Source: Candidatus Omnitrophota bacterium
GTDB lineage: Bacteria > Omnitrophota > Gorgyraeia > 2-02-FULL-51-18 > JAGOUK01
Direction: 5' to 3'
NCBI GenBank assembly: GCA_047639455.1
Contig: JBLINS010000002.1
Coordinates: 226-64,225, forward strand
DNA: 64,000 nucleotides
Below the pieces are notes generated by a model. It did no database searches. It was not told the DNA's origin and saw nothing but the letters and a program-made list of their open reading frames with translations. This document shows, piece after piece, positions 3-39,700 of this stretch (its first letter is position 1; each line of letters begins with the position of its first letter). The translations under genes were made by a program, and so were the position numbers.

Positions 3-3000
3 ATGTCAGAATTAGCTGCTCTGGATTCGGAGGTATTATATTCCTTAGCAAGAACCCAAGATGAGCAATCGCTATGGTTGTTATCCGACAACCTCAAGCT
101 TTTAACCAATCTCATCGACTTCAAATTACAAAGTGAAGACTATACCCAAATCATTTCTAGAAAAGATGTTTTTGACATCACGAAGATTGCCGGGTTTATG
201 AATCAAAAAATACTAGAATTAAAAGATTATCAAGAAAAAGCCCTATTCCTAAAGAATGACTTCAAAGATATTATTAAGTCAGCGCAAAAGTTTTATGAAT
301 TAACTTTAACGAGAGATCAGGCCTTTATTCAAAATGCGATCAAGAAAATAGAGGCAGACGATAATGAAGCGTCAATAATGATAACCGGCGGGTATCATAC
401 CCCCAATTTAAAAAAACAACTCAAGGCCCAGAATATGTCATTCATATCTTTAACGCCTACAGTAACGCATGAGACCAACCGCCCACTTTACGAAGAGCTG
501 CTCCTCAATCAAAGCGTTAGAATCACATCGCCCAATAACGCTAATTCCATGTCATTACTTCCAGTCAGAATGACTAATTCTCCATTATCGTTCTCGACAC
601 TGGCCGGAGAATTAAATGTGGATGTTTTGAGTAGTTTGATTGAGAGTTCGAGAATGGCGGATTATGTGGGTGAGTTTGATGATGGGAAGACCATGAAGGC
701 CGGTACGAGGGCTTATTCTTTTGAGGGGGGCTTGGGCGAGTTAAATAAAGAGTATTGGAATATGTTGAATGAAGAGGATCAGGTTAATATACACATATTA
801 CTTTCGCAGAATGCTGCTAATGAGGAAAATAAACGTTCTTATGTTTATGAATTAATTCATCCGTTTAAGTGGAACCGGATCATGATAACGGAGGTTCAAA
901 TCAAAGGTTTTTATGTGAATCAATCCCAAACACCCGAGAGCCATGCGGGGAGGGGGAATGTTACTGCGAATCTCTTTGGTCCATCAAATCCTGATCCTGA
1001 GGGTGGACTAACACAAAAAGGCGCTGTTAATGAACATAGAATAGCAACTCAATTCTATGCCGATCACAAGCCTCTAAATGGAACTTTCTTAAAAGTGCCT
1101 TTAGGATGGGGCACATTCCCAAATATCAATTATAAAGATCAGCCCTTGGGGTTTGTCATTATGGGTACGCCTAAATTCATGACACGTCGCATGAAAGTAG
1201 AGGACATGATTTTTGGCAAGATATTAGATGGCCTATATCTCAATGGTTTGGGTTTGCGCGACCTACACAATTCAGGTATTGGACATGGATTTTATCATCC
1301 TGGGAATATGTCTTATAATTTGATAGACACTCCCAGCTCAACGGCCGATGTCAATTTGGCTGGCATTCATGATCTTGATAGTGCCTTTTGGCTTGAAGAA
1401 AAAGCGACTCAAAACAAAACCACTGTTGAGCGCATTATTATGGCGGATTTAATATATGCCTTAGTGCAGCTAGTCGATTTATCTGCCGATATAAAACGAA
1501 TGGATGAAAGCGGTTTAATTAATGCCAAAACAATAATAGATGCCTTTTTAGAAGGTTATTTTGCCTACCTTGATGACGACGAACATATAGACGAGGTAGT
1601 TAATAACTCAGCTCGAATTTTTGTAGATTATTATGATTTTCATGTGACTCAAATGAGGATCCTGAAACGTGATTCAGATAAGGTATTAGCATTCTTGCCA
1701 ACCTATCAAAAATTCATTTCTACTCAAACAGATTTACGCCTAATCAATCTCGCCGAAAAAATAATCGGCCTTTATTTGGGCGCCAGACTAAGCGCAAGAA
1801 CACCCAGCACCAATCCCATCTCAGACCAAACCATCAACCAAGCGCCCAATCCTTTTGGAGTTAGGATGGCGGAGGATGAGGACTTGAATTTGTTTGGTCA
1901 AATGGCTAAGTATTATTGGGAAGAACACTTTCCATCTTCTGTGCAATGGCATGTGGCGGGTACATTGGGAGCTTTGGCAGCTATGGATATTGATGAAATA
2001 AGGTCTATGAATATGGAAACCTTCTTGTACAAGCTAGGTGATTCTCTCAAGATAAAAGCCGTGATTTTGGACAAAGACAATAGGCGCCAAATAATGGATG
2101 CTTATGAGGCTAAATTTGGGGTGGCTTTTGAAGATATGGACACCTTGGTCAAAAATATTTACACCGATGTCACTGGGCCCGAAGAACCTAATGCGGCAGC
2201 GCTTTGGCAATTAAAGCATTATGTTCAGGCTATTCGCAGTAATATGCACGACGCCTTGAATAGCACGACTATATCCCTCGATCTCTTCGGTCATATCGAG
2301 ATTATTATGAGCATGCGCAAGTCACCTTATAAAAAAGAGCTCTTAGATTATATGCAAGGAGTGGGGGACATTCTTACTAGTCATTTTGACATACAGCCAG
2401 GGGTGGAGACTTATATTGTTTTTAATCGCGACATGATGATTCAGCAGCATATGTGGCAAAAGTCTATTGGCGTTGTTATGTTTGCTCAGCGCATCGCACA
2501 GAACTTACATGAGTTGGATGATGCTTTTGAATATCATTATCGCTTGTCAGGCCCGGAGGTGATTAAATTAGAGCTATTATTTGCTTTTGCCTTAGGCGGT
2601 CAAGAATTTGTGGAAGAAACCATTCACTTACAAAGACGCTTACACCAAAGACTTCGTCGATCTTATGACGGTAGTAACGAGACGGTGAGTTTGGAAGACG
2701 TTTTTCGATCAGCTCAGAAGGGTGAATTATTAAAGGAATTTGGTATCACGCCTTTTGTGGATGGGCGCGCTATTCAATGGTCCAATTATTGGGCTAAAGT
2801 TCAAGCGGATGATTGGGAATCCTCTCAGCGCGAAGATTGGGGGCGTGTTAAATCGTTGGCTTTAGATGTGATTAGTTCCAAAGAGGATGGCAATCCACTA
2901 CCTACGCTTGTGCTTGGTGGTAGCCGTGATCAATTTGAAGCCCTATCTTTAATGCAATCATTGCCGGATTCATCATTGGCCCATGTCATGCAAGCAAGTC

Positions 3001-6000
3001 GAGCACATGCATTGGCTCCGCAATCGGACTCAGGTAATTCGAATGGTGGCCAAATTACTTATTTAAGAGTTTCGCCAGAATTATTAACACGCCATGATTT
3101 TGAAGAGTCGAGGCCCCGCGTTGCGATTGCTTTTCAATCCATTGAACACACACCCATTGAAGAGGTATTGAGCACGCTATACCATGTGGGTGAGGATGAC
3201 TTAGAAATGCTGTGGGTAGTTGTTCCATGGGATTCAGATAATGCTTTTGAACGTCGCCAAATGATGCAGCACTTGGATGCCGATGTCGCGATAGCCCAGT
3301 TTGGCATTGATTATTTGAAAGGTGACTTAGACGACGTCGACTTTATCCAAGCATTGAATCGAATCCAGCAAGGATTAAATTCGTTTGGATTAGATGATGA
3401 GCGAGCTCAGCGCTTTGAGTCAGACATAGCGTCAATTGAGCTTGATCGCATTGAACAGGAACTCAGCGCATTACAAATTCAATTGTCAGTTTATTTGATT
3501 CCTAAGAGAGATGCTTATAGAGAACGATATAAGCCGATTACTGCTTATTCAGCGAATGCTTTTTCTGATAGGCGGGAAATACGAAAATCGTTTAGAAAGT
3601 TTGGCTTCGATGTCTCAAAAATTGAGCGTATTCAAAACGGCGACGATTCTAGTCTATTTATTGTACGAGCCAAAAAAGGCGCGGAACATAACCGTCTTTT
3701 GTATGAGGGTGATGTAGTCCAATCAGAACCGCTGACTGTACCTGACTATGCAAAACTTGTTAAGCTGCCCTCGTTTCAAATAGCAGCCCAGACTAGCCCT
3801 CCAACACTGGGGGAAAGTTCTCCTGATCCAGTTCAAGATCTTCCGCAAAAGCTTAGACGGGTGAAGTCCTTGACTATTAAAAAAGCTGATCCAATCTTAA
3901 GTGCGGACGAAGAAAGGGCTTTGCGAGGTGTGTGGCCTAATGTATTTGACGTTAACGTCAAAAATTCCAAATTAATTCAATTGTCTCAATTGGGGTTTGA
4001 GGTTTTTGTTGGAGGCAAGATTGAATTAATGAAAATGTTTTCGTCAAACTTACATAAGAATAAAATTTTTAAACAGATCAATCGTGCTGATGTGAATCGC
4101 TTAGAAAATGCGATACAAAACGTAATTGATAATTTAAGACAACATAGAGGGGACGTACCTAGAGGTCTAGAGCGAGGGCTGATTGGAGTGCGTATTGTGA
4201 ATAAAGAAGGTACCCCGTATTTACAATTCGTTTATTTGGATAATGGGCCAGGATTTGTTAATAAGGATAGCCGATCGAGAGTCCCGATATCCATAGCAGT
4301 TATTCAAGGTGAGCCTGGAGACTCACTTGGTGGCAAGGGTACAGGATTTTTGGGAGTCGGAACAACAGTCGTTGTGGGCGCAGCCGATAATATAACTTAC
4401 CGCGAGTACCACAAGAGTGAATCTTTAGAAAGCTATGAAGGATTCGAATGGAGTAAGCGCACTCAATCGGATGATGTTGTCAAAATATTTCATGATGCTG
4501 AATTACCTGTTCAAAAGAGTTTCTCAGGCGTCCAAATAATTTGGGAGGTTCAGTCTCGATTTGTTGATGGTGTGGAGCTTGAAGTTGAGGTTGATAGCGG
4601 ATCAGTTGAAGTGGCCGAGAAAAGAGTTGAAGAATTGACTGGTGGTGCAGCAGAAGCTAGCCTTCTTTCGGAAACACCCTCGCAACGTCAATCTCGACAT
4701 CAAAGATTTCGAGATAGCTTAATAAGAATGGAGATTGCTCCAGCTAAAGCTGCATTAATTGTAAATTTTATTGAGAGTGAATATATTTCGCACTTTCCTT
4801 GGTCGGTCCCATTAAAATCAATCGATTCTTTTCTGGAGCAATATATTCTCAAATTCTATTCAAATAGTTTAAGCACCTTCGTTGATGATCTGGGAGAAGT
4901 GGAGCTTCGCGAATATATTGAATCTGAAGTTGAGAAAAGTGTTTATGGAGAGGACGAGTCGGGTGACTCAATGGCTGCAAGGACGGCTGCGCCGCGTGAG
5001 GCCGAGGGCGAGAATCGGCAAGTTGTGGAGAGGGCATTGGATAGCGTGAGAAACTTGGAAGGTGTGGAAGTCATTGTCGGTGGTGTGAAGGGGGATATTG
5101 CAAGTGGGGATAAAGATGTTTTGGATATAGTCGATGAGCGTGGCTACGTTATAGAGCCTTCTCAGAAGGCAATGCAAAAGGAAGTCCATGCTCAAGGTCT
5201 TTGGCATCGTGTGGCGCATGTATATGTATTTACTCCGGACGGTCGATTGATTTTGCAAAGAAGATCTTTAGCCAAGCCTTTGTCTCCAGGCAAATTGCAA
5301 GTGTCCGCAAGTGGACGCGTGAATGCCGGAGAGTCTGCATTGGACGCTGTCCTCCGCGAAACTGAGGAAGAATTAGGCATTAACTTCTGGCCTGAAGAAT
5401 TGATTCGCATAGGCAAAGAAAATGGACTTAGACGATCGTATGATATTTCTGGTGGGGGTGCGAATAATGAATTCATCACAAGTTACGCAGTTAAACTGTC
5501 GAGTTCAGCCCAAGTAGATCAAATATCCAAAAAGTATAATTTATTAGAAACCCAAGATCTCTGGATTCTGCCTTGGGATACATTTGTGTCGACTGTAAAA
5601 AATGACAAAGACAAATCCATTTTTTCTAATAGCCTTCACGGACTTATTCACAACCCAGAATTATTGCAACAATTAACCGAGAGCCAATCGGACATGGATT
5701 CGACGAGCGGAGGGAGCTCTTTAGATGAAGATCGTGATGTTGGTGGGGTGCGGATGAGTCGGGAGGTTGAGCCGGATAGATTTTTATATCCTATGGCAGG
5801 AACATTATTTATGCAGCCAAGAGATTCAAAACGTGTGGATAAAAATTCATATGATGGTCAGTTTAGGAATGTGGGGCTAAACTTATTAGCAAACTCCGCG
5901 AATCCTATTTCAGGGTTAATTGATCAAGAGATAAAAACTAAAGGTCATATTATTGTGGCCGATATTGGAGCAGGCCGTCAATTGGCGCTAATGGAAGCCA

Positions 6001-7697
6001 AACAAGAATTTGGAGACCAGATCACGACAGTGGCAGTGGACGTGGAGAATCATTTAGAAAGGTTGCAGCCTGATTATATAAGCAATGTCGGCAAGAGGTT
6101 GGGCGTAGAATTGGACGAAACCCATCGCCCTGATTTTATACTTGCACCTTCGCGATCTGTTAAATTCAATGAACCACCAGACATCATTCTCGCTATACGG
6201 TCACTGCCATATGAAGAGGATCCGATGCTTGGATTTGAGAATCTATATAATCAATTAGCGGTTGATGGCACGTTCGTTGCCAGGTATTACCCTGATTTGC
6301 TCAAAAATTTTGATCCTTCAGGAAAAAGCAATTTTGATGAGCCTGATTGGCTATTTAAAGCGTTAACAGAATTAAAATCTAAAGGATTAATTGCCGGGGA
6401 ATTTAGAGCAGGCTTTGTTTTTATTAAAAAAATGTCAGCTAAACAAATCCGTATTAATTTGGAACGCGATGAAACGCGTATTAAAGTTCACCGAACCCAG
6501 CACAATAGCCTTGTTCGTGGAGATTATAAAATCACAGATGGCCATGAAGAGCTGGTGACTATCATTGATGATTCTAATCCACCAGGCGATGCTCCTAAAG
6601 GTGAGGCTAGGATGGCCAATCGAATTACGTCATTTTTAGATGACGAACTTGTCACGCAACATTTTGTAGATAGTTTAAAAGACTATAGTAATGCGGGCTC
6701 CGGGGATGAATTGCCAATATTCTTATATGGACTTTATTTGCAGCGGAATAAGTTCGACGGTAGGCATACGCTGCCATTAGGCTCAAGTCTCATAACACCT
6801 AAGGCGCTTCGTGATGAAAACGGAGAAATTACTTTATATTTAATGCCGGTGGGCACGCCGCTTGATCTTAGCCCGGAAGAAACCATGCTTAGCTCCATAT
6901 TCTTTGTCAAACTTAATGATGCTAGAGACCTTGTCCAAAGCTACCAGCATGATACAAAAGTTTTAGAGCAGAAATATGTACAAGGGAGTGCCGTGGCATA
7001 TCAATTAGAGCTTCGTTCAGCCCGACGAGATTTTGTTAATGATAAGCTTGGGTCAAAGGTATTTTCTTCTAAACGAACTGTGCCTAAAGCCGTTCATATT
7101 TTGGAATCCGCTTATAGTGCTGATATGGATGCCTTAGACATAGAGCAGCAACTGGATTTATTAATCCCTACATTGAAGCATATACATCAAGCGGCTCCTG
7201 AAGTGACTTTTTATTTGGACAAACGTTTTGCCCAACGCAGTTCAAGGGTTGAATACCTATTGAATAAATATAAAGTGAATGATTTTATTCACATTGGTGA
7301 CCCAATTGAATTAGCCGTGATCACGCTTGGTTCACTAGAAGCGGGTATTGGTATTCATATCGACATCAACCCAATTGAGGCTGATGAAATTCCTATGGGT
7401 TTGGCGAGCGCTCTATACCAAGGTATTGTTGAGGCAACTGCCTTAGTTGATATAGGCACACAAAAAATCGATTTTGATATAGTCGATGAAGCGGTTATTA
7501 GCGAATTAAGGCGCAGGCGCAATCAATACCTTAAAGATTCTATAGACGATAATATAACTTATTTACGTATATTAAGCGGCACGGCTCCCAAATCGTTGCG
7601 TCAAAAATTCCTATGGAGTATTGCTCAACAAATCCCCATTGAATTCATCATCCAGGCCGCGCAACGCACCATTAAATATGTGCAGAGATCTACTTAG
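3..7697 (+). CDS. Giant multidomain protein, 5'-partial (more than 2564 aa). It shares an N-terminal module with the second giant ORF and has kinase-like, GHKL-ATPase-like, NUDIX and SAM-methyltransferase-like motifs.
   Basis: Single uninterrupted ORF from the window edge to 7697. Translated motifs: HGFYHPGN...IHDLD (nt ~1290-1385), DNGPGF and GxGTGFLGVG (nt ~4238-4362), perfect Nudix box GRVNAGESALDAVLRETEEELGI (nt ~5309-5377), IVADIGAGRQ (nt ~5950-5977). aa ~125-170 are clearly homologous to aa ~485-530 of ORF 33741..41081. Confidence 0.75.
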   Translation: MSELAALDSEVLYSLARTQDEQSLWLLSDNLKLLTNLIDFKLQSEDYTQIISRKDVFDITKIAGFMNQKILELKDYQEKALFLKNDFKDIIKSAQKFYELTLTRDQAFIQNAIKKIEADDNEASIMITGGYHTPNLKKQLKAQNMSFISLTPTVTHETNRPLYEELLLNQSVRITSPNNANSMSLLPVRMTNSPLSFSTLAGELNVDVLSSLIESSRMADYVGEFDDGKTMKAGTRAYSFEGGLGELNKEYWNMLNEEDQVNIHILLSQNAANEENKRSYVYELIHPFKWNRIMITEVQIKGFYVNQSQTPESHAGRGNVTANLFGPSNPDPEGGLTQKGAVNEHRIATQFYADHKPLNGTFLKVPLGWGTFPNINYKDQPLGFVIMGTPKFMTRRMKVEDMIFGKILDGLYLNGLGLRDLHNSGIGHGFYHPGNMSYNLIDTPSSTADVNLAGIHDLDSAFWLEEKATQNKTTVERIIMADLIYALVQLVDLSADIKRMDESGLINAKTIIDAFLEGYFAYLDDDEHIDEVVNNSARIFVDYYDFHVTQMRILKRDSDKVLAFLPTYQKFISTQTDLRLINLAEKIIGLYLGARLSARTPSTNPISDQTINQAPNPFGVRMAEDEDLNLFGQMAKYYWEEHFPSSVQWHVAGTLGALAAMDIDEIRSMNMETFLYKLGDSLKIKAVILDKDNRRQIMDAYEAKFGVAFEDMDTLVKNIYTDVTGPEEPNAAALWQLKHYVQAIRSNMHDALNSTTISLDLFGHIEIIMSMRKSPYKKELLDYMQGVGDILTSHFDIQPGVETYIVFNRDMMIQQHMWQKSIGVVMFAQRIAQNLHELDDAFEYHYRLSGPEVIKLELLFAFALGGQEFVEETIHLQRRLHQRLRRSYDGSNETVSLEDVFRSAQKGELLKEFGITPFVDGRAIQWSNYWAKVQADDWESSQREDWGRVKSLALDVISSKEDGNPLPTLVLGGSRDQFEALSLMQSLPDSSLAHVMQASRAHALAPQSDSGNSNGGQITYLRVSPELLTRHDFEESRPRVAIAFQSIEHTPIEEVLSTLYHVGEDDLEMLWVVVPWDSDNAFERRQMMQHLDADVAIAQFGIDYLKGDLDDVDFIQALNRIQQGLNSFGLDDERAQRFESDIASIELDRIEQELSALQIQLSVYLIPKRDAYRERYKPITAYSANAFSDRREIRKSFRKFGFDVSKIERIQNGDDSSLFIVRAKKGAEHNRLLYEGDVVQSEPLTVPDYAKLVKLPSFQIAAQTSPPTLGESSPDPVQDLPQKLRRVKSLTIKKADPILSADEERALRGVWPNVFDVNVKNSKLIQLSQLGFEVFVGGKIELMKMFSSNLHKNKIFKQINRADVNRLENAIQNVIDNLRQHRGDVPRGLERGLIGVRIVNKEGTPYLQFVYLDNGPGFVNKDSRSRVPISIAVIQGEPGDSLGGKGTGFLGVGTTVVVGAADNITYREYHKSESLESYEGFEWSKRTQSDDVVKIFHDAELPVQKSFSGVQIIWEVQSRFVDGVELEVEVDSGSVEVAEKRVEELTGGAAEASLLSETPSQRQSRHQRFRDSLIRMEIAPAKAALIVNFIESEYISHFPWSVPLKSIDSFLEQYILKFYSNSLSTFVDDLGEVELREYIESEVEKSVYGEDESGDSMAARTAAPREAEGENRQVVERALDSVRNLEGVEVIVGGVKGDIASGDKDVLDIVDERGYVIEPSQKAMQKEVHAQGLWHRVAHVYVFTPDGRLILQRRSLAKPLSPGKLQVSASGRVNAGESALDAVLRETEEELGINFWPEELIRIGKENGLRRSYDISGGGANNEFITSYAVKLSSSAQVDQISKKYNLLETQDLWILPWDTFVSTVKNDKDKSIFSNSLHGLIHNPELLQQLTESQSDMDSTSGGSSLDEDRDVGGVRMSREVEPDRFLYPMAGTLFMQPRDSKRVDKNSYDGQFRNVGLNLLANSANPISGLIDQEIKTKGHIIVADIGAGRQLALMEAKQEFGDQITTVAVDVENHLERLQPDYISNVGKRLGVELDETHRPDFILAPSRSVKFNEPPDIILAIRSLPYEEDPMLGFENLYNQLAVDGTFVARYYPDLLKNFDPSGKSNFDEPDWLFKALTELKSKGLIAGEFRAGFVFIKKMSAKQIRINLERDETRIKVHRTQHNSLVRGDYKITDGHEELVTIIDDSNPPGDAPKGEARMANRITSFLDDELVTQHFVDSLKDYSNAGSGDELPIFLYGLYLQRNKFDGRHTLPLGSSLITPKALRDENGEITLYLMPVGTPLDLSPEETMLSSIFFVKLNDARDLVQSYQHDTKVLEQKYVQGSAVAYQLELRSARRDFVNDKLGSKVFSSKRTVPKAVHILESAYSADMDALDIEQQLDLLIPTLKHIHQAAPEVTFYLDKRFAQRSSRVEYLLNKYKVNDFIHIGDPIELAVITLGSLEAGIGIHIDINPIEADEIPMGLASALYQGIVEATALVDIGTQKIDFDIVDEAVISELRRRRNQYLKDSIDDNITYLRILSGTAPKSLRQKFLWSIAQQIPIEFIIQAAQRTIKYVQRST
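5309..5377 (+). other. Nudix box (GX5EX7REUXEEXGU) embedded in the giant ORF
   Basis: The translation GRVNAGESALDAVLRETEEELGI fits the canonical Nudix signature exactly. The upstream ...WHRVAHVYVFTPDGRLILQRR... is typical of a Nudix fold beta-strand region. Confidence 0.7.
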
Positions 7698-33740: not shown

Positions 33741-36700
33741 TTGGGTATACTTCCTTATATGTTTATATATACGAATTCTATATATACAGTATCCCGAATA
33801 ATTAAATCTATTAGTCTATTAATCATCTTTTTGATGACTGTGGAACAATTATGCTTTGCTGCTCCCGTGGGCCAATTAGGGTCATCCTTGACACAATTAA
33901 TAGGGTCTCAGAACAAGCCTCAAACGCTCCTTTCTTTAGTGGATTTGGTTCAAAACCCAGTTAACATTAAGCCCACCTTTAAATACGCCCATGTTCAGAA
34001 TATTCATCAAGGTACGAATGGAAAATTAATCATTCATATTCAGGATGCGCATGCAAACTTTTCTGGTCAAATGAATTTGGCCAAAACTATAGATGACTTA
34101 ATGACCAAATATGGAATTAAATTGGTATTGGCAGAAGGTGGCGAAGGAGACGCTTCACTTTCAACTTTACGATCAAAAATGACCACAAGAGATATGGATG
34201 CAGCAGCTAATCGTCTACTTATGGATGGCATGATAGCTGGTCATGAATATTTGGATTTGACATCCAAACACAAAATGAAATTAGTCGGCATAGAAAATAA
34301 AGAATTGTATTTGAGCAATTTAAAGGCCTATAGCGAATTAACCCAAACAAGAAAAAAAATCACGGCTCACTTGCACAAAATAAAAGTGGCCATTCAACGC
34401 TTGAAGAACAAACTTTATTCCAAAGATATATTGGAGTTAGAGTCCATAGAGGAATTCAATAAACAATTTGAGGCTTTGCTCCAATTAAATGATGGGCGCA
34501 TTCAATTAAGCACATACCCACAAATGCAATTATTAAAGAATCTTAAATCAGAAGAAAAGCTAATTGACTTCGATAGACTTAATCTCGAAAGAGAAGCTCT
34601 TTTTGACCTATTGTCCGCAAAAGGTCAAAGCGAAGCTTTGAGGAAATTAGTCCAAGACATGAGGCAAGGCCAGTCTTCTCAAATCACACAGTCCTTTAAT
34701 ATGCGCAAGCTATTTGAATTAGCTCATCAGAATCAAATCCAAATGCAAAGATTCTACAATCTCCAAAAATACAATGATTATCTAAAAGAATTTGTCCAAT
34801 TGGATTTTAATCATCTGTTGGAAGAAGTCGATGAATTTCAAACCCTGCTCTACCAGAACTTATTCCAAGGAGAGAAAGACCCATCTATCTTGAGGGCAAT
34901 AGACGTGTATAAAGATCTTTTAGATAAAGCCACCCAAATTCAAATGACGTCACGAGAGTTTCAAACCTTTATGGCGAATGAAGAGAAATTCGACGAAGAA
35001 GCCTGGCAAGCCTTTTTGAACCAAAAGCTATTAGACTTAGAATATTACGACAATCTCATCCCTTTTAAAGAAGAACTCACCGAATTCAAGCAAAAACTAA
35101 AGAATTTTTACCGACTAGTGAACCAAAGGGATGAAGCCTTTATCCAAAATATAAGCAAAGTCCTAAACCAAGAAGATGAACAAGCGGCCTTCTTAGTAAC
35201 TGGAGGTTACCATACCCAAAACCTCACCAAGCTTGTGCAAGCAGAGGGCTACTCATTCATCACCCTAAGCCCCAAAGTCACTTCAGAAACAAATCACCAA
35301 CAATACGAATCTCTTCTACTCAAAGAATTGAACCAATCAATCTCTAGTGGCGCTCAAACAAAGTCACCCATGCAAGTCATAACCACAACCCTAGTCCAAA
35401 CCCTATCCCGCATGTCTCAAGTTCGCATCCCCGAATACGCTAGAAGATTCTCTAATGAAAGATTTGGTCAAGTTGCTCAAATGATTGTGGACCCACGAAG
35501 TGCTTCCAGGATGACTAATTATCCAAACAAGCATATATTTAATGATTACGCTTCTATGATTCAGTGGCTTAAGATTGAGTTGGGAATGGACGATGAGCAA
35601 ATTGGCGTTGTGATCGTAGATGGTCCTGCTGCTTCTGGAAAGAAAGCTGTAGCGAAACACTTGTCGGATAATGGTGAGGTTGCTCATTTCAAAATGGATG
35701 GTTTTGCGTCTCAAGCTATGAGAAACGCACTGGCTCTGGCATTAGGTTTCTTTATAGGCCCTCTCTTATTGGGTCGTTTTTTGGATCGATTCATATTGAG
35801 GTTTTTTCATGACCATGAGGCTATCTTAGATCTTAAGCAACAAATAGCACATGCTATAAAACAAGTGGAAGAATCGAATGCCGAATCCGTAGAGGTTTCT
35901 CCACAGTATGGATTCAAAAATCTGGATCCAGAGTCTGCTATCAAAGCAATGCAGGATTCAAAGCAAACTGTAAAGAAGAGCTCCACAATTATTGTTTCTG
36001 GTCTTAGGGGAAAAGAGCTTCTTGGGACGGGCATGCCTCAGCAGCAATCCATATTGGTCACAACCGATTGGAACACCACATACAATCGTTACCAGGATCG
36101 ACAGACACAAGGAAATTCAAAACAATTTTGGCCATGGGCTTTAATACGTCAATTCACTGCTAGTTTTAAGTGGGAAGAGTCTTTCTTTGCCCGACGTCAA
36201 AACGAATATGATTTTGTAATCGACTCAACCAACATCGACCGCCCTACCGTGATTGATCAAAGAAACCTAACGACTGACTCAACGAGAATGAGCCCTAACT
36301 CAGTACCATTTGAAGGTAGAGCGCGAATGTCGAATCCGAACAATGATTCTTTACCTTTACCAGCTGGTGTTGATGGATATATTGTTGATCCTGGTGCAGA
36401 GGGGTCAGGCCGTGACTTGCCGATAAGTAAAAGTGGAGCGCGGATGACGAGTTCTTCCACTGAGCATGTAGCTGAAGAGGTGCCCGACCCTTTGGCTACA
36501 GGCGAGGATGGCGCAAGCTTAGCGGAAAAAAAGAAAGTTACGGGCAAGCGACCTGGCAGGGTTAGGCAAGTAGGTCACGTACCACTTGAATCTAAGAATT
36601 TTAATTTGATTATGGAATTTATTAAGAGATATCGCAAGATTGATTCCGACACCATTGAATATTCTACTTATTTAAGGGGAATCAATCCTCTCTTAGAAAC

Positions 36701-39700
36701 ATTACGACAAGAACCCAGGGCTCGAAGAAAGGAAACCAGAGCTCTCTTAGCCTTAACAGAAGGTTTTATCCAAAAGAAAAGCCATATTCAACCCACGCTA
36801 GATGAAATCATGGCCGTTGCCGTAGCTTCTTTTTCTATACCTTTAAATTCGCACCTCTTGGTGATTTATGCTTTAACATTAAAAATGCTTGATATGACAG
36901 GCAAAGATTTACTGAATGCCCAACAAATCAGTCAATTTGAAAAAGAATTACACGCATTAGTAGATCTTTATTCTTCCAAACATCCTCAGGAGAAAAATAT
37001 TAACTTAGCAACAATCATCAGACAAATTCTCTCAATACAAATGAAGGATAGTAAATCAAACTTATTATCACAGTCGCAATGGCACTTCTCTTCTGCCCTC
37101 CAAAGCGAGTTAGCCAAAATTGAATTACAAGAAATGGGTCAAGCATTACGACACGACCCTTCTGAATCTATTGGGCGAATTCAAACCTCTCATCACGCTT
37201 TAAAATTGGGAGCTCAAAATAATCAAATTGCCAATGTCGTTGATTGGACTCATGGATTAATGAGTCAGGATCATCGGGTTCGCAGAATGATTCGATCTCA
37301 TGAAGCATCCGAAATTCCTGCTAAATCCTCAATACAAAATGCGCTTCAACCAACAGTTAATGCAGTTAATGATAATTTGGACACATTGATTTTATGGACT
37401 CTAGAAGCCCTTAAAAAAGATGACTCAAATAATCAAACACGTGATAAGAAAAAACCCTTAATCGCTCAAACTGGTGTATCTCGATATGGACTGTCCTGCA
37501 AATCTGGCTCCGCTTGCAATCAAGCTGCGGCTCGGTGGAATGATGAACACACCCTCGATGACATTCTCGAATCAAGGGAATTGTTAGAAGAATTTAGTAT
37601 GCATATTGGTCAAACAAATCAAAGCCACGCCTCATTTACGCTTAACTACGGTCAAATATACGAACATACATTGCAACGCTTAATATACTTAAGAGCTGCG
37701 GACTTTCCATTCGATGCCTCGGATTCCGATGCCGAAAGCATTTCTGCGAATCTGGATCAGATCAAGTCGTTATTGCCGAAAGAATATTTCAAGATTTATA
37801 AACTCATCGTTTCAGGTACTGCAAGCAATTCACTAAAGGCGATCCAATTAATGGAGGCTAGTCAGTGGCTGAACGAATCATTGTTAGCAGAACTGTATCA
37901 ATATATTTCCAGAGATTTATTAAGCAAGGTTTTTGTTCACCAAGATGAAGCTTCTATTGAGGAAATAAAAATAATTTCTAAAGACAATAATGATGGAATC
38001 ATAGTGAACGTTAATCCAAACGGTTTGGCCGAAGTCTTCATTGACAATAGACAATATTTTGATAATCCTCGGATGATCACGATACCATTGCCCGATCACG
38101 CTGGTTCACAAGTGAGACTAAGAGCTCAGCGCGATTCAAGATCATTCTTATGGCTACACGCATTTTCTGTGAGTGAGGACTTATTCTTAGGCCAATTCTT
38201 TTACGACTCGGAAAGGCGTGAAATGTTACATGAAAAAAAACACTTTAAGTCCAGAGTCCTCAAAGGTCATGAGGGAGTTCCTGATATGCCCGACTCGGTA
38301 CCCGTAACTATGCAGAAAAATGAAATGGGTAATTATTTTGCATTTAAATATGAGGACAAAACCTATAACCTTTCACGCCCCTATGAGGCTCGTTATAAAG
38401 GTATACGCGATGATGCTGATCTGCAAACAATTCATATACGAATCATCCGTCAGCAAAACAAGGACTATGTTTATGGCTTCTTAAATCCGGACGACGAATT
38501 AGCCTCGGATGCTTTTGCCAAATGGTTATGGGTACCCAGCAAGGACGGTGGCCGTCATCGATTTGAAGCTGAATACTTTTATGTTCCTGGAACTAAATTA
38601 TGGTTTTACCATTTACTCCGCAATAATATCACTACCTCTAGAATCTACCAGGCTAGGATTGATTTAGATGACAAAGGACAAGCTATTATTCACAAAGAAT
38701 TAAAATTACGCTTAGGGGATATGTTTAAAGGTGGGGGCCAGAATATGCCTTCAGAAGCCCTTATGACAAACACATTAGCTGACCCATCGCGCGTGGATAT
38801 TTATGATGCACCTGAATCTGAGGACAAAAAAGAAAGAGGCAGTTTTGATCCGCGTCAAATGAGATTCATTGCTAGTAAATATTATTCTAAACCTCGCAGC
38901 ATGTTCCAGCGGGATTGGCAAATCGTAACGCAAAGACATAATGAATTTCTATCAGACTCCAATCTCATAGTTCCTAACCCTGACCCCGTTGTGGTTAGAA
39001 TGCCCATTGGTGTTGATACTAGAGCCAAAACCGGTCACCCCAAGCATATTATTGATACACCCACAGGCAAGCCCATTACATTCGAAAAAACCGAACATGT
39101 TGATGAGCTTGTTATGATTCGCTTTAATCAATTCAAAATGAATGGAAGAATACAGCGTGGCATTGAGCTCATCGCGCTGTCAGAAGACTTTGTACCCAAG
39201 TTTTTGATAAGACGCGGTTATTATCACGCACCGGGTGATGAATTTAAATGGCAAAGCCCTCGCAGGAGAAAATCTTATACCATTGAAGAAAGATATCAAA
39301 TTGAAGAAGTCCTGATTCATACAGGTTATCTAGGATCCTTCGTTCATCATATGACAATCAAAGCGGATTATCTGACTCGCGAATTTGTTCAAATGGTGAA
39401 TAATGAATTGCAATTAGCTCAAATAGATGTAGAAAAAGTACTTGATGAATACAATCATGTCTTAACTGAATTGGACAAAATTAAGGCATTCCTACTCAAG
39501 CAAAATTGGGAATCTTCAGAAATGGATAAACACTTTGGCCGAATCAGTGATGTCATTAGCCCCGTTTATCGTCAAGCCATCGATCAAGTTCAAAGGAATC
39601 AGCAAACTTATCCCATTGGAACACGTGTCAGGTTTAGGCATCGCAAAGCGACTGTGGAGGGTTATCAATCAATAGAGGGTGGAGTAATTCTTATTACCCT

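What the first reader, a model, noticed from the sequence alone, without database searches (positions are those of the whole stretch)
1230..4400. Giant ORF 1 carries a degenerate kinase-like catalytic-loop motif and a GHKL-type ATPase module.
At nt ~1262-1385 the translation reads LRDLHNSGIGHGFYHPGNMSYN...AGIHDLDSAF. The H-G-x-x-H-P-G-N arrangement followed ~25 residues later by I-H-D-L-D mirrors the catalytic loop (HGDxHPGN) and metal-binding (IDxE/D) motifs of the APH/choline-kinase/RdoA protein-kinase-like fold. The position of the catalytic Asp is occupied by Phe, which suggests a pseudokinase or a non-canonical mechanism. Further on, at nt ~4130-4362, ...NAIQNVIDNLRQH... / YLDNGPGF / GEPGDSLGGKGTGFLGVG matches the N, G1 (DxGxG) and G2 (GxGxG) boxes of the Bergerat/GHKL ATPase fold found in histidine kinases, Hsp90, MutL, gyrase B and MORC. 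A kinase-like plus GHKL combination inside a multi-kb ORF is unusual.
Basis: partly seen in the sequence, partly recalled or inferred. Interest (0 to 1): 0.65.

Follow-up and report, generated by a model that had tools for sequence, protein, structure and literature searches.

The report
Pseudokinase and GHKL modules, Omnitrophota protein
A very long gene from an uncultured Omnitrophota bacterium does contain a kinase-shaped domain that lacks the usual catalytic aspartate and a divergent histidine-kinase-type ATP-binding domain, but such strings of enzyme domains are already known to be typical of this phylum's long proteins.

Summary

**Context.** The window is chromosome from a Candidatus Omnitrophota MAG. 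ORF1 (3..7697) is the 5'-truncated end of a roughly 2.9-3.0 kaa multi-domain protein.

**Kinase-like domain (aa 277-533).**
- It belongs to a five-member family among 1.84 billion representative proteins.
- A profile of that family matches PDB protein kinases almost exclusively, in catalytic-loop/DFG register (best E 1e-4).
- The top 50 Foldseek hits of an AlphaFold model are all kinase-fold proteins (YdiU/SelO, Bud32, WaaP, SidJ).
- Lys301, Glu344, His432, Asp457 and Asp482 are invariant.
- The HRD-Asp position is never Asp (Phe430 here), so it is a pseudokinase by definition.

**GHKL module (aa 1300-1520).**
- Pfam HATPase_c scores below its threshold.
- hhalign against a profile of ten E. 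coli sensor-kinase ATP-binding domains gives probability 85% and E 6e-6, about 12 sd above shuffled controls.
- No DHp/H-box precedes it, so it is not a classical sensor kinase.

**Limits.**
- Specific APH/choline-kinase membership is not supported.
- The combination is not unusual: HATPase_c, kinase, NUDIX and methyltransferase domains recur in Omnitrophota long proteins.
- Function is inferred only: nucleotide binding without canonical phosphotransfer.

The parts
3..7697 (+). ORF1: the 3' 2564 codons of a long multi-domain gene, cut at its 5' end by the window and contig edge. The estimated full length is about 2.9-3.0 kaa.
   Evidence: ORF list and translation. It is 100% identical to P0001 (2639 aa, 'partial', Candidatus Omnitrophota MAG). 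The offset to the leader module is 360 aa against ORF2 and 428 aa against P0002. No competing ORF of 80 aa or more lies in 1230-4400, and there are no tandem repeats.
3..515 (+). C-terminal part (aa 1-171, with the motif TGGYHTPN) of a conserved N-terminal leader module. In complete homologues the module starts with a signal-peptide-like segment and an IQDAH motif.
   Evidence: BLASTP against P0002 gives 40% identity (E 6e-38), against P0003 E 8e-15, and against ORF2 of this window 38% identity (E 2e-24). N-termini of ORF2 and of P0002-P0006, P0008 and P0010 were read. No Pfam family matches.
831..1601 (+). Core of the protein-kinase-like domain (aa 277-533). Proposed assignments are beta3 Lys301 (nt 903-905), alphaC Glu344 (nt 1032-1034) and alphaF Asp482 (nt 1446-1448).
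   Evidence: Five-member family alignment A1 with invariant residues R278, K301, G302, E344, H422, H432, D457, D482 and Y519. Profile against PDB kinases. AlphaFold model and Foldseek.
1266..1310 (+). Catalytic-loop equivalent, aa 422-436 (HNSGIGHGFYHPGNM). Phe430 (nt 1290-1292) sits where the HRD/HGD catalytic Asp would be. His432 and Asn435 are retained.
   Evidence: Register taken from the HMMER alignment to LmaMPK10 'HRDLHPGNIL' and to PknA. Position 430 is F/W/Y/Y in four members and T or P in P0016.
1365..1379 (+). DFG-equivalent strand, aa 455-459 (IHDLD). Asp457 is the invariant metal-binding Asp candidate.
   Evidence: Asp457 is invariant in A1 and aligns with the DFG Asp of PDB kinases.
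1965..3677 (+). Conserved middle domain or domains of unknown function (aa 655-1225), lying between the two modules of the finding.
   Evidence: phmmer hits to P0007 (E 1e-71), P0008 (1.5e-49) and P0009 (5e-25). A sub-domain at aa 798-921 is shared with P0011-P0015 and P0017. There is no Pfam or PDB match.
3900..4562 (+). Divergent GHKL (Bergerat-fold) ATP-binding module, aa 1300-1520. The N box is at nt 4107-4145 (Asn1377), G1 (DNGPG) at nt 4233-4256 (Asp1413), and G2 at nt 4308-4361.
   Evidence: Pfam HATPase_c covers aa 1363-1452 below threshold. The one homologue is P0010 (E 3e-20). hhalign against ten E. coli sensor-kinase ATP-binding domains gives probability 85%, E 6e-6 and z of about 12 over shuffles. 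Foldseek hits are mostly GHKL ATPases.
5205..5477 (+). NUDIX hydrolase domain (aa 1735-1825) with an intact Nudix box, G1771-x5-E-x7-REtxEExGI (nt 5313-5381).
   Evidence: Pfam NUDIX E 3e-10, above its threshold. NCBIfam YfcD and IDI models match only below their cut-offs. PHROG NUDIX families match. The box was read directly from the translation.

Best explanation
ORF1 is the contig-truncated body of a roughly 3,000-residue protein from an Omnitrophota bacterium. It belongs to the class of long proteins in this phylum that begin with an export or anchor leader module and then string together many enzyme-like domains.

**Shown**
- aa 277-533 is a protein-kinase-like domain from a very rare family (five members found).
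- That family keeps the candidate nucleotide- and metal-binding residues: Lys301, Glu344, Asn435 (in four of five members), Asp457, and the alphaF Asp482.
- It always has a non-acidic, mostly aromatic residue (Phe430 here) where the catalytic base Asp of kinases sits.
- aa 1300-1520 is a divergent GHKL ATP-binding module of the histidine-kinase catalytic-domain type, with the N-box Asn, the DxGxG box and a glycine-rich lid.
- No DHp/H-box domain precedes it.
- An intact NUDIX domain follows.

**Inferred**
- The kinase-like domain binds ATP or another nucleotide with Mg2+ but cannot do base-assisted phosphotransfer in the canonical way.
- It therefore acts either as a nucleotide-dependent switch or scaffold, or as a transferase with different chemistry, as in SelO/YdiU or SidJ.
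- The GHKL module binds and probably hydrolyses ATP, or phosphorylates a Ser/Thr partner as anti-sigma-factor kinases do, rather than autophosphorylating a histidine.
- The whole polypeptide is exported. Complete relatives, including ORF2 in this window, start with a signal-peptide-like segment, and the 2564 visible residues contain no further membrane-spanning segment.
For: **Organism and class**
- ORF1 is 100% identical to an NCBI Candidatus Omnitrophota MAG protein.
- Neighbouring genes are bacterial housekeeping genes (BamA, DnaB, GlnA, UbiD, GlmU).
- The leader module is shared with ORF2 and with P0002-P0006, P0008 and P0010.
- Literature describes the domain content of such proteins.

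**Kinase fold**
- Homologues were found by exhaustive phmmer.
- The family profile hits PDB kinases, 59 of 60 listed, with best E 1e-4 and the correct register.
- A control profile gives no such enrichment.
- Pfam Pkinase gives a weak hit on the same stretch of P0018.
- The AlphaFold model has pTM 0.62, with per-block pLDDT mostly 70-85 between model residues 11 and 190 (some blocks lower), and the strand/helix order expected of a kinase.
- All 50 top Foldseek hits are kinase-fold proteins, best E 2e-4.
- The spacing from the HRD position to the DFG Asp is the canonical 18 in P0018 and P0019.

**GHKL**
- No DHp/H-box was found.

**Other**
- NUDIX.
- No TM-like segment in the visible protein.
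- SelO is a precedent for an active enzyme lacking the canonical catalytic Asp (PMC12409994).
Against: - Neither module reaches a curated Pfam threshold in ORF1. There is no kinase family hit at E <= 10, and HATPase_c scores 13.7-17.7 bits against a cut-off of 26.4.
- Both structure models are shallow-alignment predictions. The kinase model used 5 sequences (pLDDT 57). The GHKL model used 2 sequences (pLDDT 44.7). TM-scores are low at 0.2-0.5.
- The N-lobe assignments (Lys301, Glu344) rest on invariance and predicted secondary structure, not on an inspected superposition.
- The GHKL homologue P0010 alone scores weakly against the sensor-kinase profile (26.0, probability 12%) and has no Pfam hit.
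- The GHKL profile finds nothing among PDB sequences.
- The true N-terminus of ORF1 is not in the data, so export is inferred from relatives.
- ATP-dependent domains outside the cytoplasm would be paradoxical.
- No functional data exist for any family member.
Confidence: 0.7

Rival explanations
1. The kinase-like domain is a catalytically active transferase with non-canonical chemistry, for example AMPylation or UMPylation with a flipped nucleotide as in SelO/YdiU, or adenylation-dependent ligation as in SidJ. On this reading it is not an inert nucleotide-binding scaffold.
For: - Only the catalytic-base position has changed. Lys301, Glu344, Asp457 and Asp482 are invariant, and Asn435 is kept in 4 of 5 members, across a family with only 25-32% identity. 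That pattern suggests selection on an active site.
- The best structural matches are YdiU, SelO and SidJ.
- SelO lacks the canonical Asp yet is active (PMC12409994).
Against: - Foldseek ranking on a model with pLDDT 57 cannot discriminate between kinase subfamilies.
- There is no Pfam SelO hit.
- No relocated acidic residue was identified.
- Most pseudokinases are regulators or scaffolds.
Confidence: 0.3
2. The GHKL-like boxes are a chance resemblance, and aa 1300-1520 adopts some other alpha/beta fold that does not bind ATP.
For: - Pfam HATPase_c is below its threshold.
- Homologue P0010 has no Pfam hit.
- The profile finds nothing among PDB sequences.
- The AlphaFold model has pLDDT 44.7 and lacks the helix expected after G2.
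- hhalign against a single HATPase_c_2 sequence gives probability of only 3%.
Against: - hhalign against a ten-sequence sensor-kinase profile scores 42.1 (probability 85%, E 6e-6) with the three boxes in order. The maximum over 100 column-shuffles was 21.3, and unrelated domains or the reversed sequence scored 14-16.
- The top 14 Foldseek hits are all GHKL proteins.
- The N-box Asn, DNGPGF and the lid glycines are conserved between ORF1 and P0010 at 30% overall identity.
Confidence: 0.12
3. The kinase-like motif similarity is convergent or accidental, and aa 277-533 is not a kinase-fold domain.
For: - No Pfam or NCBIfam kinase model hits ORF1 at E <= 10.
- TM-scores to kinases are only 0.3-0.5.
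- The significant sequence alignment covers only about 55-80 residues.
Against: - 59 of 60 PDB profile hits are kinase-fold proteins, all in one register.
- All 50 top Foldseek hits are kinase-fold proteins.
- Pfam Pkinase independently hits the same stretch of P0018.
- The order of conserved Lys, Glu, Asn, Asp and Asp, and the 18-residue spacing, fit the fold.
Confidence: 0.06
4. The GHKL module is the catalytic domain of a genuine two-component sensor histidine kinase embedded in the long protein.
For: The best profile match is to sensor-kinase catalytic (CA) domains, including a DNGPGF G1 box typical of histidine kinases.
Against: - A profile that includes the DHp/H-box region aligns only over the CA part.
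- No HisKA, HAMP, PAS or receiver domain is detected in ORF1.
- The conserved His1351, about 26 residues before the N-box Asn, is far too close to be an H-box His. The usual distance is about 100 residues (my knowledge).
Confidence: 0.05

Closest known systems
SelO/YdiU (AMPylating/UMPylating pseudokinase) and SidJ (Legionella glutamylase with a kinase fold)
   Same: All have a kinase-like bilobal fold. They are the top Foldseek matches (9jyn, 9jym, 6iii, 6eac, 6oqq). SelO also lacks the canonical HRD catalytic Asp while keeping the Lys, Asn and Asp nucleotide and metal ligands (PMC12409994).
   Different: There is no sequence-family match (no Pfam SelO hit). The ORF1 domain is much smaller, about 260-330 aa against about 480. 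No relocated catalytic Asp was identified, and no activity data exist.
Minimal kinases Bud32/PRPK and WaaP (Kdo/WaaP family)
   Same: They give the best target-normalised structural fits (TMt 0.45-0.52). They are also compact kinase folds of about 230-260 residues without a long activation segment.
   Different: Bud32 and WaaP keep the catalytic Asp. ORF1 has no Pfam Kdo or RIO hit. ORF1 also has a long insert between the proposed beta3 strand and the alphaC helix (aa 303-337).
Bacterial GLW pseudokinases (PMC12599244)
   Same: In both, the HRD motif is replaced by a hydrophobic or aromatic triplet. P0020 reads G-L-Y and ORF1 reads H-G-F at those positions.
   Different: GLW proteins also lose the beta3 Lys (a poly-Leu/Trp motif) and are predicted not to bind ATP. 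The ORF1 family keeps an invariant Lys-Gly and Glu. GLW proteins have a C-terminal TM segment and are mostly proteobacterial.
Eukaryotic-type Ser/Thr kinases with an HRDLHPGN loop (e.g. Leishmania LmaMPK10, PDB 3pg1/3uib; PknA)
   Same: They give the best sequence-profile matches, running from the alphaE helix through the catalytic loop to the DFG motif (E 1e-4 to 0.02).
   Different: They have the catalytic Asp, a Gly-rich loop and an activation segment. ORF1 fails the Pfam Pkinase threshold.
HATPase_c catalytic domains of sensor histidine kinases, and HATPase_c_2 anti-sigma-factor Ser kinases (SpoIIAB/RsbW)
   Same: The N box, G1 (DNGPG) and G2 lid occur in the same order and with compatible spacing. 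The small anti-sigma kinases give the best target-normalised Foldseek fits (8ih8, 8jzt, 1tid). Like them, the ORF1 module has no DHp domain.
   Different: The module is below the Pfam threshold, has only one homologue, has no detectable F box, and has a conserved 65-residue N-terminal extension of unknown fold. The GHKL subclass is unresolved, because Foldseek ranks Hsp90/TRAP1 and MutL first.
Omnitrophota long multi-enzyme proteins ('Archaeovorins', West-Roberts et al. 2023; class 1 'multi-enzyme metabolic clusters', Nielsen & Lui 2026)
   Same: They share the phylum and the architecture: many unrelated enzyme domains on one polypeptide. The recurring domains include HATPase_c, methyltransferase, NUDIX and kinases. 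Most carry a signal peptide or TM segment.
   Different: ORF1 is about 3 kaa, far below the size cut-offs of those surveys (10 kaa or more in Nielsen & Lui). No HEAT or TPR scaffolds or glycosyltransferases were detected in it.

Membership tests
Protein-kinase-like (PKL) superfamily | Bilobal fold: an N-lobe beta-sheet plus alphaC helix, and a helical C-lobe with a catalytic loop and a DFG strand | tested here: met
   The AlphaFold model (pTM 0.62; per-block pLDDT mostly 70-85 between model residues 11 and 190, with some blocks lower) has the expected order of elements. All 50 top Foldseek PDB hits are kinase-fold proteins, best E 2e-4. Model quality is moderate and TM-scores are 0.3-0.5.
Protein-kinase-like (PKL) superfamily | Catalytic-loop Asn and DFG-type metal-binding Asp in register | tested here: met
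   N435 and D457 align with the (K/H)PxN Asn and the DFG Asp of PDB kinases. D457 is invariant and N435 is present in 4 of 5 members.
Protein-kinase-like (PKL) superfamily | beta3 Lys and alphaC Glu ion pair | tested here: inconclusive
   K301 and E344 are invariant. They fall at the end of a predicted strand and inside the predicted alphaC helix respectively. No sequence alignment to kinases covers the N-lobe, and no superposition was inspected.
Catalytically canonical protein kinases | Catalytic base Asp of the HRD/HGD motif | tested here: not met
   The position is F430 in ORF1, W, Y and Y in three homologues, and T or P in P0016. It is never Asp. By the definition in PMC12599244 this makes the family pseudokinases.
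APH / choline kinase / RdoA (Pfam PF01636, PF01633) | Match to the family profile at or above the curated threshold | tested here: not met
   There is no APH or Choline_kinase hit at E <= 10 for ORF1 or its fragments, or at E <= 1 for the homologues. None of these proteins appears among the top 50 Foldseek hits or the 60 PDB profile hits.
Pfam Pkinase (PF00069) | Score at or above the gathering threshold (31.7 bits) | tested here: not met
   ORF1 gives no hit. Homologue P0018 scores 17.5 bits (E 0.0028) over the catalytic-loop region only.
GHKL / Bergerat-fold ATPases | N box (Mg-binding Asn), G1 DxGxG and G2 glycine-rich lid, in order and with compatible spacing | tested here: met
   N1377, D1413-N-G-P-G and G1443-K-G-T-G-F-L-G-V-G are conserved with P0010. 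They align in register with ten E. coli sensor-kinase ATP-binding domains: hhalign probability 85%, E 6e-6, score 42.1 against 13.4 +/- 2.4 for shuffles.
GHKL / Bergerat-fold ATPases | Pfam HATPase_c (PF02518) score at or above the gathering threshold (26.4 bits) | tested here: not met
   The whole protein scores 13.7 bits (E 0.089) and the fragment 17.7 bits (E 0.0049). P0010 gives no hit.
GHKL / Bergerat-fold ATPases | Three-dimensional Bergerat fold | tested here: inconclusive
   The model has pLDDT 44.7. Even so, the top 14 Foldseek hits, and most of the top 50, are Hsp90/TRAP1, MutL/PMS2, Topo II, SpoIIAB-type or histidine-kinase chains. E-values are only 1e-3 to 0.3.
Two-component sensor histidine kinases | DHp dimerisation domain with an H-box His immediately upstream of the catalytic domain | tested here: not met
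   hhalign with a DHp+CA profile aligns only the CA part. There is no HisKA-type Pfam hit.
NUDIX hydrolases (PF00293) | Family profile above threshold and a Nudix box GX5EX7REUXEEXGU | tested here: met
   Pfam scores 40.6 bits against a cut-off of 21.1. The box at aa 1771-1793 was read from the translation.
Isopentenyl-diphosphate isomerase type 1 (the NCBI name of P0001) | NCBIfam/TIGRFAM IDI equivalog score above its cut-off | tested here: not met
   PRK03759 scores 44 bits against 127, and TIGR02150 scores 22.5 against 105.8. The best match is YfcD at 54 bits against 152.
Omnitrophota long multi-enzyme proteins | Omnitrophota origin, and a single polypeptide with several unrelated enzyme domains behind a signal or anchor | tested here: met
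   Origin is shown, and the domains. The leader with a signal-like N-terminus is seen in paralogue ORF2 and in homologues. ORF1's own N-terminus is missing.
Omnitrophota long multi-enzyme proteins | Size at or above the survey cut-off (10 kaa or more in Nielsen & Lui) | tested here: not met
   The estimated full length is about 2.9-3.0 kaa.

The most novel reading that the evidence does not exclude
The kinase-like domain may found a new, extremely rare family of exported kinase-fold enzymes. Five members were found among 1.84 billion representative proteins, and two stand-alone members have signal-peptide-like N-termini. On this reading the family has swapped the catalytic Asp for an aromatic residue and uses bound nucleotide for a non-phosphoryl transfer such as AMPylation, UMPylation or ligation. 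In ORF1 it would work with the orphan GHKL ATPase and the NUDIX hydrolase as a nucleotide-handling effector delivered to the host or prey cell of an episymbiotic Omnitrophota bacterium.
Probability: 0.1. Interest if true: 0.7.

Novelty: new member of a known kind. Interest (0 to 1): 0.38.

Why it matters
The result assigns folds to two stretches of 'dark' sequence in a long Omnitrophota protein. That protein is currently named in NCBI only after its NUDIX domain, as 'isopentenyldiphosphate isomerase, partial'.

It also defines a small, previously unrecognised kinase-fold family with a consistent loss of the catalytic Asp. The other ATP-site residues are retained, which is the pattern that led to new chemistry in SelO and SidJ.

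For the biology of Omnitrophota, which are proposed predators or episymbionts, it adds a concrete and testable set of nucleotide-binding modules in an apparently exported protein.

The finding does not change how kinases or GHKL ATPases are understood. The domain combination is expected for this phylum.

Tried and rejected
**Hypotheses rejected**
- **Phage origin.** This was suggested by the one-strand gene order and two giant ORFs. It was rejected: there is no phage DNA match, and the window carries BamA, DnaB, GlnA, UbiD and GlmU.
- **Direct family assignment.** Pfam, NCBIfam and PHROGs on the whole ORF and on seven fragments gave only NUDIX above threshold.
- **Single-sequence phmmer against PDB.** Nothing was found for either module.
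- **Gene-fusion link.** The 512-aa neighbour of stand-alone homologue P0019 has no similarity to ORF1.
- **Bridging through other giants.** Profiles A1 and A3 find no further copies in P0002-P0020 or ORF2.
- **Methyltransferase reading.** Neither aa ~1960-2130 (VADIGAGRQ) nor aa ~965-1080 has any Pfam or PDB support.
- **TraB/TIKI-like reading of the leader module.** There is no Pfam support. It remains a recollection only.
- **Histidine-kinase reading of the GHKL module.** No DHp/H-box was found.

**Searches that found nothing or could not be run**
- Enlarging the families failed:
  - The search for homologous proteins with alignment A1 returned nothing, not even P0001.
  - The same tool with P0019 returned only P0019 itself.
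  - The genome-contig scan found only a near-identical fragment of P0010.
  - Two metagenome scans found nothing.

Full report
**What the window is.** The one-strand gene order and two giant ORFs first suggested a phage. However, the window has no phage DNA match. It encodes BamA, DnaB, glutamine synthetase, UbiD, GlmU, prolyl oligopeptidase and an ABC exporter. ORF1 (nt 3..7697, + strand, 2564 codons) is 100% identical to P0001. P0001 is a 2639-aa NCBI protein from a Candidatus Omnitrophota MAG, named 'isopentenyldiphosphate isomerase, partial'. It continues 75 aa upstream of the window and is itself cut by the contig end.

**The leader module.**
- The first 171 residues of ORF1 are the end of a conserved module with the motif TGG(Y/F)H.
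- The same module occurs at residues ~393-534 of the window's second giant ORF (33741..41081), and at ~430-600 of other 2.5-4 kaa Omnitrophota-type proteins.
- In those proteins the module begins with a signal-peptide-like hydrophobic segment and an IQDAH motif.
- ORF1 is therefore missing about 360-430 N-terminal residues. Its full length is about 2.9-3.0 kaa.
- No TM-like segment occurs in the visible 2564 residues.
- No antisense ORF of 80 aa or more and no tandem repeat lies inside the finding's range.

**Checking the observation.** Every quoted peptide is present within about 25 nt of the stated positions.
- HGFYHPGN: aa 428-435, nt 1284-1307.
- IHDLDSAF: aa 455-462, nt 1365-1388.
- NAIQNVIDNLRQH: aa 1369-1381, nt 4107-4145.
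- YLDNGPGF: aa 1411-1418, nt 4233-4256.
- GEPGDSLGGKGTGFLGVG: aa 1436-1453, nt 4308-4361.

**The kinase-like domain: family.**
- Direct searches with Pfam, NCBIfam and PDB sequences find nothing for this stretch.
- An exhaustive phmmer search of 1.84 billion representative proteins found four relatives of aa ~324-520. These are P0016 (439 aa), P0018 (459 aa), P0019 (475 aa) and P0020 (915 aa).
- The five sequences share 25-32% identity and align over about 260 residues.
- The invariant residues are R278, K301-G302, G318, P332, G334, E344, G370, G383, G388, L418, H422, G425, H432, D457, D482 and Y519.

**The kinase-like domain: homology to kinases.**
- A profile of this alignment searched against all PDB sequences returns 60 listed hits. 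Of these, 59 are kinase-fold proteins (MAP kinases, PknA, twitchin, PDK1, CHK2, ULK1/2 and the PAN3 pseudokinase).
- All 59 align over the alphaE-catalytic loop-DFG region, with best E 1e-4.
- In that register, family consensus 'GllhlylHpgNil...ihDl' pairs with 'GVVHRDLHPGNIL...ICDF'. H428-G-F430 therefore replaces H-R-D. H432-P-G-N435 matches the loop ending in the metal-binding Asn, and D457 is the DFG-type Asp.
- A control profile of the neighbouring middle domain returns only unrelated proteins at E > 0.2.
- Pfam Pkinase independently hits the same stretch of P0018, below threshold (E 0.0028).

**The kinase-like domain: structure.**
- An AlphaFold2 model of aa 240-620 was built with the five-sequence alignment. 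It is of moderate quality: mean pLDDT 57 and pTM 0.62, with per-block pLDDT mostly 70-85 between model residues 11 and 190 (some blocks lower).
- It shows a beta-hairpin ending at K301, a helix containing E344, two further strands ending in the GFVIMG 'hinge', a long helix, and then the loop region.
- All 50 top Foldseek hits in the PDB are kinase-fold proteins. These are YdiU/SelO (E 2e-4), Bud32/PRPK, WaaP, SidJ, ROP2 and receptor kinases.
- TM-scores are low (0.3 by query length, up to 0.52 by target length for Bud32).
- The position of the catalytic Asp is F, W, Y, Y and T/P in the five members. It is never Asp.
- The distance from that position to the DFG-type Asp is 18 residues in P0018 and P0019. 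That equals the D166-D184 distance in PKA (my knowledge). It is 27 in ORF1 because of a 9-residue insertion.
- By the usual definition, the family are pseudokinases (loss of the beta3 Lys, the HRD Asp or the DFG Asp; PMC12599244).
- The assignment of K301 and E344 as the beta3 Lys and alphaC Glu is inferred from invariance and predicted secondary structure only.

**The GHKL module: sequence evidence.**
- Pfam HATPase_c covers aa 1363-1452 (profile positions 2-80 of 111) but scores below the 26.4-bit threshold. The whole protein scores 13.7 bits (E 0.089) and the fragment 17.7 bits (E 0.0049).
- One homologue exists: P0010 aa 1127-1321 (E 3e-20). P0010 is another leader-bearing long protein. 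The only related genome locus found is a near-identical fragment from an Omnitrophota MAG.
- ORF1 and P0010 share DNLRQHRG, LDNGPGFVN, FLG(V/I)G, REYH and (Y/F)EW at 30% overall identity.
- The two-sequence profile finds nothing among PDB sequences. P0010 alone has no Pfam hit.

**The GHKL module: structure and profile comparison.**
- The AlphaFold model is poor (pLDDT 44.7).
- Even so, its top 14 Foldseek hits, and most of the top 50, are GHKL proteins. They include HtpG, TRAP1, MLH1/PMS2, Topo II, SpoIIAB-type anti-sigma kinases and a histidine kinase, at E 1e-3 to 0.3.
- For a cleaner test I extracted ten sensor kinases from E. coli K-12 (EnvZ, PhoR, PhoQ, CpxA, BaeS, RstB, QseC, BasS, NtrB and CreC). 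I aligned their last 175 residues and compared that profile with the ORF1+P0010 profile using hhalign.
- The result is probability 85.2%, E 6e-6 and score 42.1 over 84 columns, with the N box, G1 and G2 aligned in order.
- Controls:

| Query against the sensor-kinase profile | hhalign score |
|---|---|
| ORF1 + P0010 profile | 42.1 (probability 85.2%) |
| ORF1 alone | 38.5 (probability 78%) |
| P0010 alone | 26.0 (probability 12%) |
| 100 column-shuffles of the query | mean 13.4, sd 2.4, maximum 21.3 |
| Reversed query | 13.9 |
| Kinase-like profile (A1) | 15.6 |
| Middle-domain profile (A5) | 14.0 |

- When the sensor-kinase profile is extended to include the DHp/H-box region, only the catalytic part aligns. 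No HisKA-type domain is detected by Pfam.
- The module is therefore a GHKL ATP-binding domain without the histidine-phosphotransfer partner. Its subclass (histidine-kinase-like, anti-sigma-kinase-like or Hsp90/MutL-like) is unresolved.

**The rest of the protein.**
- aa 655-1225 is a conserved domain of unknown function. It is shared with P0007-P0009, with a sub-domain shared with P0011-P0015 and P0017.
- aa 1735-1825 is a NUDIX domain above the Pfam threshold, with an intact Nudix box.
- No IDI equivalog threshold is met, so the NCBI product name over-reaches.
- The last ~700 residues have no match.

**How it most likely works.**

Shown:
- Two nucleotide-binding folds and a NUDIX hydrolase lie on one long polypeptide.
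- That polypeptide belongs to a leader-bearing Omnitrophota protein class.

Inferred:
- The kinase-like domain keeps the residues that hold ATP and Mg in kinases but lacks the base. It probably binds nucleotide without canonical phosphotransfer.
- It would then act either as a switch or scaffold, or with alternative chemistry. SelO is the precedent: it lacks the canonical Asp, binds ATP flipped, and AMPylates its substrates (PMC12409994).
- The retention of every other active-site residue at ~30% identity leans towards a functional pocket. I cannot decide between the two readings.
- GLW pseudokinases also have a hydrophobic triplet in place of HRD. They additionally lose the beta3 Lys, which this family does not.
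- The GHKL module probably binds and hydrolyses ATP.
- Export is inferred from relatives. ATP-using domains outside the cytoplasm would make sense only if the protein acts inside another cell. That is speculation, in line with the proposed predatory or episymbiotic lifestyle of the phylum.

**Comparison with what is known, and novelty.**
- West-Roberts et al. (bioRxiv 10.1101/2023.11.21.568195) list HATPase_c, NUDIX and SAM-dependent methylases among recurrent domains of giant Omnitrophota proteins.
- Nielsen & Lui (bioRxiv 10.64898/2026.06.07.730766) report a 'signal-transduction/regulatory' domain module built around a methyltransferase domain (PF08241, 137 proteins) and PF02518 (136 proteins). 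Of their 916 long proteins, 779 have at least one Pfam hit. They also describe 'multi-enzyme' architectures with kinase and NUDIX content.
- A kinase-like plus GHKL combination in a multi-kb ORF is therefore expected here, not unusual.
- Two things are new. One is the recognition of a tiny kinase-fold family with a consistent loss of the Asp. The other is an orphan GHKL module. Both are absent from Pfam.
- I rate this as a new member of known kinds, of moderate interest.

**What led nowhere.**
- All attempts to enlarge either family failed.
- The neighbour gene of P0019 is unrelated to ORF1.
- The methyltransferase-like and TraB/TIKI-like readings of other segments have no profile support.

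Noticed in passing
window 33741-41081 (+): A second giant ORF (2446 aa) has no Pfam hit at all. It starts with a signal-peptide-like segment, an IHIQDAH motif and the same TGGYHT leader module as ORF1 (38% identity over about 140 aa). The rest of it is unrelated to ORF1. One chromosome segment therefore carries two paralogous 'leader plus variable body' proteins.
   Followed up: partly
window 3-515; ORF2 aa 1-534; P0002-P0006, P0008, P0010 N-termini: The conserved ~550-aa leader has three parts: a signal-like segment, IQDAH...AEG, and TGG(F/Y)H. It matches no Pfam family. Its motif pattern reminds me of TraB/PrgY/GumN/TIKI-type domains (GTxH...E...GxxH). That is a recollection and was not tested.
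   Followed up: partly
window 5205-5477 (ORF1 aa 1735-1825): The NCBI product name of this 2639-aa protein ('isopentenyldiphosphate isomerase, partial') rests only on the ~130-aa NUDIX domain. The IDI equivalog models score far below their cut-offs (44 bits against 127), and YfcD is the better match.
   Followed up: yes
window 1965-3677 (ORF1 aa 655-1225): A large conserved domain is shared with P0007-P0009 (E down to 1e-71). Its second half (LVLGGS...PRVAIAFQSIEHTP...MLWVVVP) looks by eye like a degenerate class I methyltransferase Rossmann fold. No Pfam or PDB profile supports this.
   Followed up: partly
window ~5880-6390 (ORF1 aa ~1960-2130): A second methyltransferase-like motif set (IIVADIGAGRQ ... 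VAVDVE ... PDIILAIRSLPY ... DGTFVARY) has no HMM or PDB sequence support at E <= 10.
   Followed up: partly
P0016, P0019 (stand-alone homologues of the kinase-like domain); L002 3537-7377: Two of the stand-alone kinase-like proteins begin with signal-peptide-like hydrophobic N-termini, which hints that the domain works outside the cytoplasm. P0019 is followed by two same-strand ORFs (512 and 284 aa) with no Pfam hit. The 512-aa one was compared with ORF1 and has no similarity to it.
   Followed up: partly
P0020 aa 1-52; P0010 aa 652-754: GNAT acetyltransferase domains accompany both the kinase-like domain (P0020) and the GHKL module (P0010) in relatives. None is detected in ORF1.
   Followed up: no
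P0011 aa ~2840-2990; P0005 aa ~3050-3170: Other long proteins recovered here carry additional GHKL modules. P0011 has a bona fide HATPase_c_2 (RsbW/SpoIIAB type, Pfam E 4.5e-7). P0005 has an Hsp90/sacsin-like 'IREGIQNARD ... GLFGIGNY' stretch, seen by eye only.
   Followed up: partly
window 1-64000: Forty-one of the 47 ORFs of 150 aa or more are on the + strand, and cumulative GC skew rises monotonically across the window. The whole window therefore appears to lie on one leading-strand replichore.
   Followed up: no
tool behaviour: the search for homologous proteins with alignment A1 reported no hit at E <= 0.01, although P0001 contains the first sequence of the alignment exactly. Negative results from that call should not be trusted.
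   Followed up: no
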